Part shown: in pieces, positions 619-5,642 of the stretch
Layout: the number at the start of each line of letters is the position of its first letter
Position numbering within the stretch: position 1 is the stretch's first letter
IMG/VR virus record: IMGVR_UViG_2690316121_000004
Coordinates: 1 to 6,447 of that record
From: a virus
Lineage: Duplodnaviria; Heunggongvirae; Uroviricota; Caudoviricetes
DNA length: 6,447 nt
Reading direction: 5' to 3' (one strand)
Position numbers and translations under genes: made by a program
Notes under the pieces: generated by a model
Seen by the model: the letters and a program-made list of their open reading frames with translations, nothing else
Told to the model about the DNA's origin: nothing
Databases searched by the model: none

Positions 619-1068
619 TTACTTAACCAATGATGCTGCATATTCGATAAGGTAAAGCTTTGGGGCCAGCCAAATTTTTAACCAAGTCATATTGGTTACT
701 ACAGCAATAATAAAACTTACCCACAGAACAAAAACTGCTGCTAATGGTAAGATTAGAAAACTAATCTCACCGTTACTTTCCCAAATCATAGTCGGTTTGT
801 ATTTAGGCTTTCCCTTCTCCCATGCCCATCCTTCATCATCGAACTTACCAATTTCAACTTTTTGGTACTGTTTCTTCATAAACCAGAAAACCAACGGGAT
901 TGTTAAAATGGCTATTAATGTTTTAATCAGACTGTCAACCATATTCCATAGCAGCAACTGATGAACAACATCAGGAATCTGTGCCTGGCTAAATGAGACA
1001 GCCGCGTCTATTCCATTACTGGCTTTTTGCAATAGTTCTACGAGAATCTTGTTTGCTTGTTCTTCCAT
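619..1068 (-). CDS. Hypothetical 149-aa membrane protein with two predicted transmembrane helices; accessory (moron) gene inserted between ea10 and ral
   Basis: Intact ORF with ATG at 1068 preceded by AAGGTGA. Two long hydrophobic segments (LIKTLIAILTIPLVFWFM and ISFLILPLAAVFVLWVSFIIAVV). Has its own terminator and is flanked by 16-bp direct repeats. Looks AT-rich by eye. No homolog recognised. Confidence 0.7.
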   Translation of the reverse strand: MEEQANKILVELLQKASNGIDAAVSFSQAQIPDVVHQLLLWNMVDSLIKTLIAILTIPLVFWFMKKQYQKVEIGKFDDEGWAWEKGKPKYKPTMIWESNGEISFLILPLAAVFVLWVSFIIAVVTNMTWLKIWLAPKLYLIEYAASLVK

Positions 1069-1106: not shown

Positions 1107-1122
1107 GCCAAAAATAAAGGCC
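1107..1122. repeat. 16-bp direct repeat GCCAAAAATAAAGGCC, copy 2
   Basis: Exact match to 586..601. Lies between the ral stop and the start of the 149-aa gene. Confidence 0.9.
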
Positions 1123-1126
1123 ACCA

Positions 1127-1224
1127 TCAGGCAGCCTTGTTGTTCTGTTTACCAAATTCTCTGGCAATCATTGCCGTCGTTCGTATTGCCCACACCATTG
1201 ATTTTTATCAATGGTCGTAGTCAT
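1127..1224 (-). pseudogene. ral: ral (restriction alleviation) remnant with an internal out-of-frame deletion
   Basis: From the ATG at 1224 the minus strand reads MTTTIDKNQWCGQ, matching the lambda Ral N-terminus, then YERRQ and a stop at 1168..1170. A different frame reads WAIRTTAMIAREFGKQNNKAA with a stop at 1127..1129, matching the lambda Ral C-terminus. The roughly 30 central codons are missing. The junction sits at GTGGGCAAT (1185..1193). Confidence 0.6.
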
Positions 1225-1294
1225 ACGGATAGTCCTGGTATTGTTCCATCACATCCTGAGGATGCTCTTCGAACTCTTCAAATTCTTCTTCCAT
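1208..1294 (-). CDS. 28-aa hyperacidic peptide (MEEEFEEFEEHPQDVMEQYQDYPYDYDH), positional equivalent of lambda orf28
   Basis: ATG at 1294 preceded by GAGGTGAGAT. It overlaps the ral start by 17 nt, the same arrangement as orf28/ral in lambda. It is too short to appear in the supplied ORF track. Confidence 0.5.
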   Translation of the reverse strand: MEEEFEEFEEHPQDVMEQYQDYPYDYDH

Positions 1295-1352: not shown

Positions 1353-1736
1353 TCATCTTGCTGTCAGTTGTTTGGATTTCCGGTAGCCTGCCGCGTAAAG
1401 AGCTACATTTGGAAGACATACACCAGTTTCTGGTTGCTTATGTCCAAACTCATTCGCGTACACAATGGCCGCTCGCTCCAGATTGCGTCTGTATTCTTCC
1501 TGCTGCCAGATCACGTCCTGTGCCATGAACTTAATTGGCTTAGCGTCTTCTATGCGCTTAGGCGTTTCGTGAGTACCTTTAGCCTGAATCTGCGCTCTGC
1601 TTAGAGTAGGGCGGCGTAATACTTCTGAACTTATTGCTTCTTCGCAGGCCAGTACGCCGTTAGCTAATGCCTTTGCCTTTAAACGCTCACGACGACGAGA
1701 ACGTGAATTGCCTTTGAACTGAGTTCTGCGTGTCAT
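1353..1736 (-). CDS. N: N-family transcription antiterminator of the P22 gene 24 type (127 aa)
   Basis: Start ATG at 1736 with AGGAGG 6 nt upstream. Arginine-rich motif near the N-terminus (FKGNSRSRRRERLKAKA). C-terminus LPNVALYAAGYRKSKQLTAR closely resembles the P22 gp24 C-terminus. First gene downstream of pL and nutL. Confidence 0.8.
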   Translation of the reverse strand: MTRRTQFKGNSRSRRRERLKAKALANGVLACEEAISSEVLRRPTLSRAQIQAKGTHETPKRIEDAKPIKFMAQDVIWQQEEYRRNLERAAIVYANEFGHKQPETGVCLPNVALYAAGYRKSKQLTAR

Positions 1737-1865
1737 GTGGAACCTCCTGATGAACTTTGGCGGTGAATACAGCCGGGCGACTAACTCCGGTCGCGTAATC
1801 ATTGCAAAGCGCCTCCGCCGAGAAGGTTAGCTTCTGCATTCACCCCAAAGTTCACTTTGGTTATT

Positions 1866-2192: not shown

Positions 2193-3191
2193 TTATGTTA
2201 TCTCTTTGACATAAAGTATTATCGCGGACTTTATTTCACCATCTAGTTCTTTTGCGTTGATTGACAAATGAACTGGTTTTCTATCCCACTCAGCTTGCTG
2301 AAGAGCTTTTTTATGCTCGGATGCGTCGAGAAAAACATCTTGTACTATGCACGATATTCTTAGATCGGAGTCAACATTTCTCACTTGCACTTTGAAGCTC
2401 TCTGGATCAGTGGAGTCAACCTTTTCAATGCGATAATTTCCATCAAGGCGGATCTCCATTGATTTCCGCCTTGCATTTGTAGTGAGGGTTTTGGATAGAT
2501 CTGCATCCAATACAACGCCATCAATCTGAGCTGTATCAGCCTTGACAAATGATTTAACTATGTCGGTTTTTGCGTCATGAGCAAGTCTTTCCATGTTGTC
2601 TAGCTTGGGTTTTTCGCTAATAATCTGAGTCAATAATTCACTTCGTTTTGTTTCCTGCTCAGACATGAAGCGCATGGTCGCAAGGTGTTCACGCTCAGAC
2701 TCGCTTTTTACTTCTGCCATGCGAATCTCTTTGCGGTCTTCTAGATATTTTTTGAATAGGACGACGCCGCCCCATATAAGAGCGACCCCTAAAACTGTAA
2801 TAACGATCTCTTGAGGGCCCACTTTACTCACCGCAGTTTGTATAACCTCACCCATGAACCCATCCATATTAACTTCTATCAAGGACGAGCCATTCTCAAC
2901 ATTCACCTGAATTTCGATAGCTTCCTTCTCTTCTTTTGAAAGCTTTCTTGGGTCAGGAACTCCGTACTTTAACAATGCATAAGCTCGGTTTATTTGGGCC
3001 TGCATTTCAACAAAACCCTTCATCACAGAAGGAGTCAAACTGCCATGAAATTTGTCACCAGTAAGACGGAAGGTTAAGTTAGGCCACCCTTCAAATGATA
3101 TTCCATCAGGAAGATCTTGCCCAGCGATGTACATCTCAACAAAACGCAAAGCATCTTCTTCGGAATGAATAACCGCCGTGCTGATTTCCAA
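2193..3191 (-). CDS. Hypothetical 332-aa single-pass membrane protein in the rexA-rexB slot; candidate phage exclusion / abortive-infection determinant
   Basis: Intact ORF directly downstream of cI on the same strand. The first in-frame start is TTG at 3191 with GAGG 7 nt upstream; the first ATG is at 3134 (residue 20) and has no Shine-Dalgarno. One strongly hydrophobic segment (IVITVLGVALIWGGVVLF, about residues 130-147) is followed by KKYLEDRKEIR and a long charged region. Not similar to RexA or RexB as I recall them. Confidence 0.8.
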   Translation of the reverse strand: MEISTAVIHSEEDALRFVEMYIAGQDLPDGISFEGWPNLTFRLTGDKFHGSLTPSVMKGFVEMQAQINRAYALLKYGVPDPRKLSKEEKEAIEIQVNVENGSSLIEVNMDGFMGEVIQTAVSKVGPQEIVITVLGVALIWGGVVLFKKYLEDRKEIRMAEVKSESEREHLATMRFMSEQETKRSELLTQIISEKPKLDNMERLAHDAKTDIVKSFVKADTAQIDGVVLDADLSKTLTTNARRKSMEIRLDGNYRIEKVDSTDPESFKVQVRNVDSDLRISCIVQDVFLDASEHKKALQQAEWDRKPVHLSINAKELDGEIKSAIILYVKEIT

Positions 3192-3261: not shown

Positions 3262-3978
<717 letters not shown>

Positions 3979-4743: not shown

Positions 4744-5642
4744 ATGACAAATACAGCAAAAATACTCAACTTCGGCAGAGGTAACTTTGCCGGACAGGAG
4801 CGTAATGTGGCAGATCTCGATGATGGTTACGCCAGACTATCAAATATGCTGCTTGAGGCTTATTCAGGCGCAGATCTGACCAAGCGACAGTTTAAAGTGC
4901 TGCTTGCCATTCTGCGTAAAACCTATGGGTGGAATAAACCAATGGACAGAATCACCGATTCTCAACTTAGTGAGATTACAAAGTTACCTGTCAAACGGTG
5001 CAATGAAGCCAAGTTAGAACTCGTCAGAATGAATATTATCAAGCAGCAAGGCGGCATGTTTGGACCAAATAAAAACATCTCAGAATGGTGTATCCCTCAA
5101 AACGAGGGAAAATCCCCTAAAACGAGGGATAAAACATCCCTCAAATTGGGGGATTGCTATCCCTCAAAACAGGGGGACACAAAAGACACTATTACAAAAG
5201 AAAAAAGAAAAGATTATTCGTCCGAGAATTCTGGCGAATCCTCTGACCAGCCAGAAAACGATCTTTCTGTGGTTAAACCGGATGCTGCAATTCAGAGCGG
5301 CAGCAAGTGGGGGACAGCAGAAGACCTGACCGCCGCAGAGTGGATGTTTGACATGGTGAAGACCATCCGCCATCAGCCAGAAAACCGAATTTTGCTGGGT
5401 GGGCTAACGATATCCGCCTGATGCGTGAACGTGACGGACGTAACCACCGAGACATGTGTGTACTGTTCCGCTGGGCATGCCAGGACAACTTCTGGTCCGG
5501 TAACGTGCTGAGTCCGGCCAAACTCCGCGACAAGTGGACCCAGCTCGAAATCAACCGAAACAAGCAACAGGCTGGCGTGACAGCCGGCAAACCAAAACTC
5601 GACCTGACGAACACTGACTGGATTTACGGGGTGGAGCTATGA
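4744..5642 (+). pseudogene. O: O replication initiator, frameshifted (N-terminal 225 codons in one frame, C-terminal 73 codons in another)
   Basis: The ORF 4744..5421 matches the lambda O N-terminal domain; the ORF ending at 5642 matches the lambda O C-terminus and overlaps the P start (ATGA) as in lambda. The span is 899 nt, not a multiple of 3. The frames switch at about 5364..5372 (ATCCGCCATCAGCC here; lambda has ATCGCACCATCAGCC as recalled). Confidence 0.85.
5092..5216. other. ori-lambda: four iterons (about 5092..5111, 5112..5131, 5134..5156, 5159..5178) plus an AT-rich unwinding region (5179..5216)
   Basis: Four repeats of ATCCCTCAAAACGAGGGA-like sequence, followed by CACAAAAGACACTATTACAAAAGAAAAAAGAAAAGATTATTCG, inside the O coding region. 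Confidence 0.9.

What the first reader, a model, noticed from the sequence alone, without database searches (positions are those of the whole stretch)
1127..1224. ral inactivated by an internal out-of-frame deletion at a 9-bp microhomology
The minus strand encodes the Ral N-terminus (MTTTIDKNQWCGQ) and, in a different frame, the Ral C-terminus (WAIRTTAMIAREFGKQNNKAA). The join is at GTGGGCAAT (1185..1193), a sequence that, from my recollection of lambda ral, occurs near both codon 10-14 and codon 44-47. This fits a replication-slippage or recombination deletion of about 100 bp that leaves an 18-codon stub. The overlapping 28-codon ORF upstream is intact.
Basis: partly seen in the sequence, partly recalled or inferred. 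Interest (0 to 1): 0.45.

Follow-up and report, generated by a model that had tools for sequence, protein, structure and literature searches.

The report
Dead ral gene: recurrent 103-bp deletion
This lambda-like E. coli prophage carries a broken copy of the small anti-restriction gene ral, destroyed by a 103-base deletion between two short look-alike sequences; the same lesion is already annotated as a pseudogene in many E. coli genomes, so it is real but ordinary.

Summary
Window 1127..1224 (minus strand) is a 98-nt remnant of lambda ral, which is 201 nt when intact. Exactly 103 nt are missing (ral nt 33/36 to 135/138). The deletion shifts the frame. It leaves an 18-codon stub (MTTTIDKNQWCGQ+YERRQ*) and, in another frame, Ral residues 46-66. 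orf28 upstream is intact.

A rare intact allele (E. coli Z1323CEC0014) does have a perfect GTGGGCAAT at both sites. Deleting between those copies in silico reproduces an observed short allele with 0 differences in 168 nt.

The lesion is not private.
- It has identical boundaries in 31 IMG/VR contigs, in the viable phage ECP1, and in roughly 50-90 of 5,426 complete E. coli genomes.
- PGAP annotates it 'antirestriction Ral family protein, frameshifted'.
- It occurs with two junction types (TGGGCAAT and TGGACAAT).
- Three short alleles have exact parent-product pairs on different haplotypes. This suggests at least two independent deletions at the gene's best internal quasi-repeat.

The most likely consequence is loss of Ral-mediated relief from type IA restriction. 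This is a known kind of event with a known annotation. Interest is low.

The parts
1127..1224 (-). ral pseudogene remnant, 98 nt (intact ral 201 nt minus 103 nt)
   Evidence: Alignment to lambda and Stx2_EH2086. Pfam and PHROG Ral hits to the fragments. PGAP annotates the same 98-nt span as 'antirestriction Ral family protein, frameshifted' in other genomes.
1168..1224 (-). 18-codon stub ORF plus stop. It encodes Ral residues 1-13 followed by the out-of-frame residues YERRQ.
   Evidence: Sequence read directly. The identical 57-nt CDS is annotated as WP_244591461.1 in E. coli Z1323HEC0477.
1127..1198 (-). 23-codon ORF carrying Ral residues 46-66. It lies in the orf28 frame, starting 9 nt after the orf28 stop codon. 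There is no evidence that it is used.
   Evidence: The frame is interrupted by stop codons in 2 of 16 distinct short alleles.
1185..1193 (-). Deletion junction. The retained repeat copy TGGGCAAT lies at 1192..1185, preceded by G at 1193. The breakpoint is ambiguous within TGG (1192..1190).
   Evidence: Intact alleles match the window only from position 1192 onwards.
1208..1294 (-). orf28, an intact 28-codon ORF that overlaps the first 17 nt of ral
   Evidence: PHROG 16060 hit at E = 2.5e-18. The protein is identical in 60 of 75 distinct alleles.
1117..1138 (-). Terminator-like stem-loop overlapping the ral stop codon, retained in the short allele
   Evidence: Consensus scan only. The same sequence is present in lambda.

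Best explanation
The feature is a null (pseudogene) allele of the lambdoid anti-restriction gene ral. A misalignment between two short direct quasi-repeats removed 103 bp. The left repeat is ral nt 33-40 (TGGACAAT, or rarely TGGGCAAT). The right repeat is nt 136-143 (TGGGCAAT). One repeat copy was kept. The misalignment could have been replication slippage or single-strand annealing.

Because 103 is not a multiple of 3, the frame shifts after codon 13 and translation stops after 18 codons. Residues 14-45, including three of the four cysteines, are lost. No functional Ral can be made (inferred).

On induction or infection the phage therefore lacks Ral's stimulation of de novo methylation by type IA systems such as EcoKI. 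Unmodified genomes are then restricted more severely. ral is non-essential, so the phage is otherwise unaffected.

The allele is old enough to have accumulated private substitutions. It is widespread in E. coli prophages. It most likely arose independently at least twice at the same site, which is the start of the best internal quasi-repeat of the gene.

Shown: the deletion, its boundaries, its distribution, and the parent-product pairs. Inferred: the slippage mechanism, the loss of function, and the number of independent events.
For: The deletion itself:
- A clean 103-nt gap against lambda and Stx2_EH2086.
- The fragments hit Pfam Ral only at profile positions 1-13 and 46-66.

Distribution, always with the same boundaries:
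- 11 + 13 + 7 IMG/VR contigs.
- Phage ECP1, which was propagated on MG1655.
- At least 43 E. coli genomes with the window-type junction, plus about 45 with the O55:H7-type junction.
- 37 loci carrying 17 distinct alleles.
- PGAP labels the allele as frameshifted.

Parent-product pairs with 0 differences in 168 nt:
- L007/L013 equals the Z1323CEC0014 intact allele (L138) minus 103 nt. L138 has a perfect GTGGGCAAT repeat.
- L008 equals L137 with the right-copy junction.
- L152 equals L034/L039/L107 with the left-copy junction.

Other support:
- There are two junction types, G and A.
- The deletion shows all four gametes with all 4 SNPs lying within 25 nt to its left. The background for SNP pairs no more than 30 nt apart is 9 of 284.
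- The junction coincides with the 5' edge of the top-scoring internal direct quasi-repeat of the orf28-ral island, 23 of 32 identical at a shift of 103.
- Short alleles differ from lambda at 3.25 positions per allele in the 3' remnant, against 1.78 for intact alleles. Two alleles carry stop codons there.
- Ral's function is taken from the review PMC12707154.
- Lambda strains deleted for orf28-ral are viable (PMC2327257).
Against: - No intact allele was found that is an exact parent of the window's own allele. The nearest simulated product differs at 2 of 168 positions.
- Other repeats of similar quality exist in ral, yet only this deletion is seen. The quasi-repeat is no better than expected by chance: 23% of shuffles score as high. 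There is no stimulating hairpin. The reason this site is preferred is therefore only partly explained.
- Recombination clearly also acts near the junction. The same derived right-hand haplotype (224A/257T) occurs with three different left haplotypes. Part of the haplotype evidence for recurrence could therefore come from allele shuffling.
- Loss of Ral function was not tested.
Confidence: 0.85

Rival explanations
1. There was a single ancient deletion. The short allele arose once and was then moved into many lambdoid backgrounds by homologous or Red-mediated recombination within the conserved orf28-ral island. The A/G difference at the junction is a later point mutation.
For: - All 37 short loci have identical boundaries.
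- No other deletion type was seen except a 6-nt loss elsewhere.
- The island is flanked by at least 6 unrelated upstream and at least 4 unrelated downstream modules, so recombination in or beside it is frequent.
- A derived right haplotype occurs with three left haplotypes.
- Lambda Red recombines diverged sequences efficiently (PMC2327257).
Against: - Three short alleles on different haplotypes each match a sampled intact allele exactly on both sides of the junction. The matches include rare markers (77G, 234T) and opposite junction bases.
- A single origin would need crossovers within 11-25 nt of a 103-nt heterology several times, plus a junction transition.
Confidence: 0.2
2. The short allele is functional. 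The deletion creates a useful micro-ORF. One candidate is the 23-codon ORF, which puts Ral residues 46-66 in the orf28 frame 9 nt after the orf28 stop and could be translated by termination-reinitiation. The other candidate is the 18-residue stub.
For: - 14 of 16 distinct short alleles keep the 23-codon frame open.
- The ATG lies 9 nt downstream of the orf28 stop codon, in the same frame (read directly).
- The allele is common and is present in a viable phage.
Against: - There is no Shine-Dalgarno sequence.
- Two allele groups, including the common O55:H7 type and ECP1, have stop codons in that frame.
- Divergence in the 3' remnant is higher than in intact alleles.
- Three of the four Ral cysteines are gone.
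- A 23-codon frame staying open is expected by chance.
Confidence: 0.04
3. The short form is ancestral and the 66-codon ral arose by an insertion, or the gap is an assembly or sequencing artefact.
For: None found.
Against: - Both remnants are out of frame with each other, yet each matches Ral.
- Full-length Ral occurs in distant Salmonella/P22-like phages at 64-80% identity.
- The same gap is present in dozens of independent complete assemblies and viral contigs.
Confidence: 0.01
4. Loss of ral is adaptive. Inactivation is positively selected in resident prophages, for example because leaky Ral would weaken the host's type IA restriction barrier. That would explain why one easily generated null allele is so common. 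This reading is compatible with the main explanation.
For: - In the IMG/VR sample, which was pulled by exact sequence patterns, the 103-bp null is much more abundant than other nulls. It occurs in 31 contigs, against two nonsense alleles seen once each, G19* and W46*.
- It occurs in lineages with long-resident prophages, such as O55:H7 and O157:H7 493/89.
Against: - There was no test of association with the host hsd type.
- About 700 genomes keep the intact sequence.
- Neutral decay of a non-essential gene combined with a mutational hot spot is sufficient to explain the data.
- The window prophage itself looks decayed, because its O gene is frameshifted.
Confidence: 0.12

Closest known systems
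Bacteriophage lambda ral (restriction alleviation; Pfam PF11058, PHROG 1055)
   Same: The locus is the same, between N/orf28 and the sieB-position gene. The retained DNA is about 95% identical to lambda. Codons 1-13 and 46-66 are recognisable.
   Different: 103 nt are missing (codons 12/13 to 45/46) and the frame is shifted, so no full-length Ral can be made.
RefSeq/PGAP pseudogene 'antirestriction Ral family protein, frameshifted', e.g. G2583_RS32440 in E. coli O55:H7 CB9615
   Same: It has the same 98-nt remnant with the same deletion boundaries. The window's allele is 100% identical to the one in E. coli Z1323HEC0477.
   Different: The O55:H7 type has junction TAGACAAT and 8 substitutions relative to the window allele. 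In Z1323HEC0477, PGAP calls the 18-codon stub a protein (WP_244591461.1) instead of a pseudogene.
Spontaneous deletions between short direct repeats by slipped mispairing (the classical lacI deletion hot spots; from my own knowledge)
   Same: The endpoints lie in a short direct repeat about 100 bp apart. One copy is retained. The event is recurrent, and a perfect-repeat parent allele exists.
   Different: In most parents the repeat is imperfect (7/8), embedded in a 32-nt quasi-repeat that is 72% identical. The mechanism was not tested experimentally here.
Lar of the Rac prophage, a functional analogue of Ral (from my own knowledge)
   Same: It would provide the same restriction-alleviation function against type IA systems.
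   Different: It is unrelated in sequence, is not present in the window, and was not examined here.

Membership tests
Ral (Pfam PF11058) as a functional member | A single ORF matching the whole 66-position profile | tested here: not met
   Lambda Ral matches profile positions 1-66 (162.5 bits). The window fragments match only positions 46-66 (38.5 bits) and, when artificially joined, 1-13 plus 45-66. The two fragments lie in different frames.
Ral (Pfam PF11058) as a functional member | The cysteine-rich core C11, C17, C20, C26. This core is nearly invariant: only C26Y, in 2 of the 28 protein variants sampled. | tested here: not met
   The deletion removes codons 14-45. Only C11 remains.
Ral locus (orthology of the DNA) | Collinear nucleotide homology to lambda ral in the syntenic position downstream of N and orf28 | tested here: met
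   Alignment A1. The whole window matches lambda 33481-40390 in pieces.
Ral (function) | Alleviates restriction and enhances modification by type IA R-M systems (EcoKI, EcoBI) | not testable with these tools
   The function is known from the literature (PMC12707154). Its loss here is inferred from the truncation.
Short-direct-repeat (slipped-mispairing) deletion | Deletion endpoints fall within a direct repeat and exactly one copy is retained | tested here: met
   The left copy is TGGACAAT or TGGGCAAT and the right copy is TGGGCAAT, 103 nt apart. The window keeps one TGGGCAAT.
Short-direct-repeat (slipped-mispairing) deletion | An undeleted parent allele exists whose in-silico deletion reproduces the product | tested here: met
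   There are 0 differences in 168 nt for the pairs L138->L007/L013, L137->L008 and L034->L152. For the window allele itself the nearest parent differs at 2 positions.
Short-direct-repeat (slipped-mispairing) deletion | Arises de novo at a measurable rate, independently of RecA, and is stimulated by repeat length | not testable with these tools
   This needs a fluctuation assay or amplicon sequencing.

The most novel reading that the evidence does not exclude
The 103-bp ral deletion is a recurrent hot-spot null allele that is repeatedly fixed because losing Ral benefits the lysogen. A resident prophage that no longer boosts de novo type IA methylation leaves the host's restriction barrier intact. 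This would be a small, convergent step in prophage domestication.
Probability: 0.12. Interest if true: 0.4.

Novelty: already known. Interest (0 to 1): 0.15.

Why it matters
It matters little for biology at large. ral is a non-essential accessory gene, and its decay in prophages is expected and already flagged by RefSeq annotation.

There are three modest practical points:
- Annotation pipelines treat the same lesion inconsistently, as an 18-residue 'Ral family protein' in one genome and as a frameshifted pseudogene in others.
- The allele is a convenient natural example of recurrent deletion at a short quasi-repeat, with parent and product alleles both sampled.
- Phages or prophages carrying it should be more sensitive to type IA restriction when unmodified. 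That is relevant when predicting host range of lambdoid and Stx phages.

Tried and rejected
- Hairpin-stimulated deletion. Single-strand DNA folds of the deleted interval on both strands are no more stable than shuffles (z = 0.82 and 0.25). Rejected.
- The repeat as a statistically unusual feature. The best internal quasi-repeat scores 13, and 23% of shuffles reach that score. The repeat is a chance feature.
- Known RNA in the window. Rfam gave 0 matches at gathering score.
- Defence-system hits for neighbouring genes. PADLOC gave none.
- Other species. A junction scan of the GTDB species representatives gave 0 hits.
- Search for the window's exact parent, an allele with 82C plus the G variant. 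The metagenome scan found only one intact 82C allele, and it has TGGACAAT.
- Codon-level selection test on the 3' remnant. The syn/nonsyn/stop counts are 6/9/3 in short alleles and 7/14/2 in intact alleles, which is uninformative.
- The count of 154 genomes is inflated. Its low-identity band consists of intact alleles that BLAST aligned through the quasi-repeat.
- timed out and was redone.
- The paper PMC2327257 mentions orf28-ral only in strain genotypes.

Full report
**What is in the sequence.**
On the minus strand an ATG at 1224..1222 opens MTTTIDKNQWCGQYERRQ*, with its stop at 1170..1168. A second frame, ORF 1127..1198, reads MVWAIRTTAMIAREFGKQNNKAA. My recalled lambda Ral sequence (66 aa) matched lambda records at 100% by tblastn. 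The stub therefore carries Ral 1-13, and the second ORF carries Ral 46-66 with one change, L57F. Pfam PF11058 (Ral) and PHROG 1055 match the second ORF only at profile positions 46-66. The 28-codon orf28 (1208..1294) is open, with Y28H relative to lambda, and matches PHROG 16060.

**The lesion.**
Alignment with lambda and with the best phage match, Stx2_EH2086, shows one clean 103-nt gap in otherwise collinear sequence. That is 201 nt reduced to 98 nt.
- In lambda the left site is GTG-TGGACAAT-TC and the right site is AAA-TGGGCAAT-AC.
- The window keeps TGGGCAAT at 1192..1185.
- Intact alleles in the phage and E. coli collections match the window only from position 1192 onward.
- Because 103 = 3x34+1, the frame shifts after codon 13.

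**Where the window comes from.**
The window is a lambdoid prophage early region.
- It is 99.5% identical over its whole length to a prophage of E. coli Z1323HEC0477. Positions 1-1614, which include the ral remnant, are identical.
- It has a lambda-like cI, a 933W/H-19B-type N, and lambda-like cro-cII-O-P.

**The allele is not private.**
- The exact junction is found in 11 IMG/VR contigs.
- A second junction type, TGGACAAT-ACG, is found in 13 contigs. A derivative of it, TAGACAAT, is found in 7 contigs.
- Phage ECP1, isolated from chicken faeces and grown on MG1655, has the short allele.
- Among 5,426 complete E. coli genomes, 43 carry the window-type junction.
- About 45 more match the O55:H7-type junction at 95% identity or better. 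The weaker band of that search is intact alleles aligned through the quasi-repeat. The total is therefore roughly 50-90 genomes.
- About 700 genomes show only the intact-type match.
- PGAP already annotates the 98-nt remnant as 'antirestriction Ral family protein, frameshifted'. In one genome it instead annotates the 18-codon stub as a protein.
- Full-length Ral in distant Salmonella/P22-like phages shows that the short form is derived.

**One event or several.**
All 37 short loci, representing 17 distinct alleles, share the same boundaries. They sit between at least six unrelated upstream modules and at least four unrelated downstream modules. Each of these modules is also found next to intact ral.

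The evidence for more than one event is as follows.
- Simulating the deletion in each of 69 distinct intact alleles gives three exact matches, with 0 differences in 168 nt:
  - L007/L013 equals the intact allele of E. coli Z1323CEC0014 (L138) minus 103 nt. L138 carries a perfect 9-bp GTGGGCAAT at both sites and the rare markers 77G and 234T.
  - L008 equals L137 with the right-copy junction.
  - L152 equals L034/L039/L107 with the left-copy junction.
- These products lie on different haplotypes and have opposite junction bases.
- The deletion shows all four gametes with each of the 4 SNPs within 25 nt to its left. The background for SNP pairs no more than 30 nt apart is 9 of 284.

I read this as at least two independent deletions. 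Recombination also contributes, because a derived right-hand haplotype (224A/257T) occurs with three left haplotypes. A single origin followed by shuffling is therefore not excluded; I give it about 0.2.

For the window's own allele, the nearest simulated parent differs at 2 positions. An intact allele sharing its rare 82C marker has TGGACAAT.

**Why this site.**
- A self-alignment of the lambda orf28-ral island gives, as its top off-diagonal hit, exactly ral nt 33-63 against 136-167. This is 23 of 32 identical at a shift of 103, beginning at the junction.
- The deletion therefore uses the gene's best internal quasi-repeat.
- That repeat is no better than chance for this composition: 23% of shuffles score as high.
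- There is no stabilising hairpin.
- Intact alleles with a perfect repeat are rare: 1 of 5,426 genomes and 1 IMG/VR contig, against at least 120 contigs with the imperfect repeat.

**Consequence (inferred).**
Ral speeds first-strand methylation of unmodified DNA by type IA R-M enzymes and so raises phage survival (review PMC12707154). Without residues 14-45 the protein cannot be made. ral is dispensable, since lambda strains deleted for orf28-ral are used routinely (PMC2327257).

The remnant looks unconstrained.
- Short alleles differ from lambda at 3.25 positions per allele in the 3' remnant, against 1.78 for intact alleles.
- In orf28 the short alleles are not more diverged (0.69 against 1.07).
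- Two allele groups have stop codons in the C-terminal frame.

The 23-codon ORF happens to lie in the orf28 frame, 9 nt after the orf28 stop codon. Nothing indicates that it is used.

**Verdict.**
This is a real, correctly located pseudogene formed by a classic short-repeat deletion. The '9-bp repeat in lambda' is wrong in detail, although a rare intact allele does carry it. The lesion is common, probably recurrent, and already annotated in RefSeq. Interest is low.

Noticed in passing
window 4744..5642 (+), break after 5367: The replication gene O is split into a 225-codon ORF (4744..5421) and a 73-codon ORF (5421..5642). The cause is a 1-nt deletion (a missing G after 5367) relative to the 99.5%-identical prophage of E. 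coli Z1323HEC0477, where O is intact at 299 aa. Either the prophage is replication-defective or this is a sequencing error.
   Followed up: partly
window 2193..3191 (-): A 332-codon ORF of unknown function occupies the rexA/rexB position between cI and N. It matches PHROG 6191 at E = 1e-137. It has no Pfam hit above threshold and no PADLOC hit. It is a candidate exclusion or defence moron.
   Followed up: partly
window 619..1068 (-): A 149-codon ORF with hydrophobic segments lies immediately downstream of the ral remnant, in the sieB position. It matches PHROG 3054 (unknown function), with no Pfam or PADLOC hit. The O55:H7-type short alleles have the same neighbour.
   Followed up: partly
window 1208..1294 (-), and loci L001-L162: orf28 looks like a real gene. 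60 of 75 distinct alleles encode the identical 28-residue acidic peptide, and most polymorphic sites fall at third codon positions. It stays conserved in the ral-deleted alleles.
   Followed up: partly
IMG/VR loci L025, L032, L047, L051, L060, L070, L127: A second common ral variant has AAA->TAA at codon 60, giving a 59-residue Ral that lacks the last 7 residues. It occurs in 7 distinct alleles. P22-type Ral aligns only to residue 60, so this variant may still be functional. Single nonsense alleles G19* (L060, on this K60* background) and W46* (L111) were also seen.
   Followed up: no
L005 2768..3016 (phage ECP1), also L011 and L012: In ECP1-type phages the ral remnant is followed by an 82-residue protein of a different anti-restriction family (PHROG 14587), which GenBank mislabels as 'ral'. 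It may replace the lost function.
   Followed up: partly
L003 6077..6133 (E. coli Z1323HEC0477): PGAP annotates the 18-codon stub as a bona fide 'antirestriction Ral family protein' (WP_244591461.1). The same lesion is a 'frameshifted' pseudogene in other genomes. This is an annotation inconsistency.
   Followed up: yes
window 1117..1138 (-): A terminator-like stem-loop (AAGGCTGCCTGATGGTGGCCTT followed by TATTTTT) overlaps the ral stop codon. It is conserved in lambda and in the short alleles.
   Followed up: no
window 1353..1802 (-) versus 3262..3975 (-): The early region is mosaic: a 933W/H-19B-type N (Pfam N_peptide) is combined with a lambda-like cI repressor. The orf28-ral island is a ~270-bp conserved linker between unrelated modules.
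   Followed up: partly
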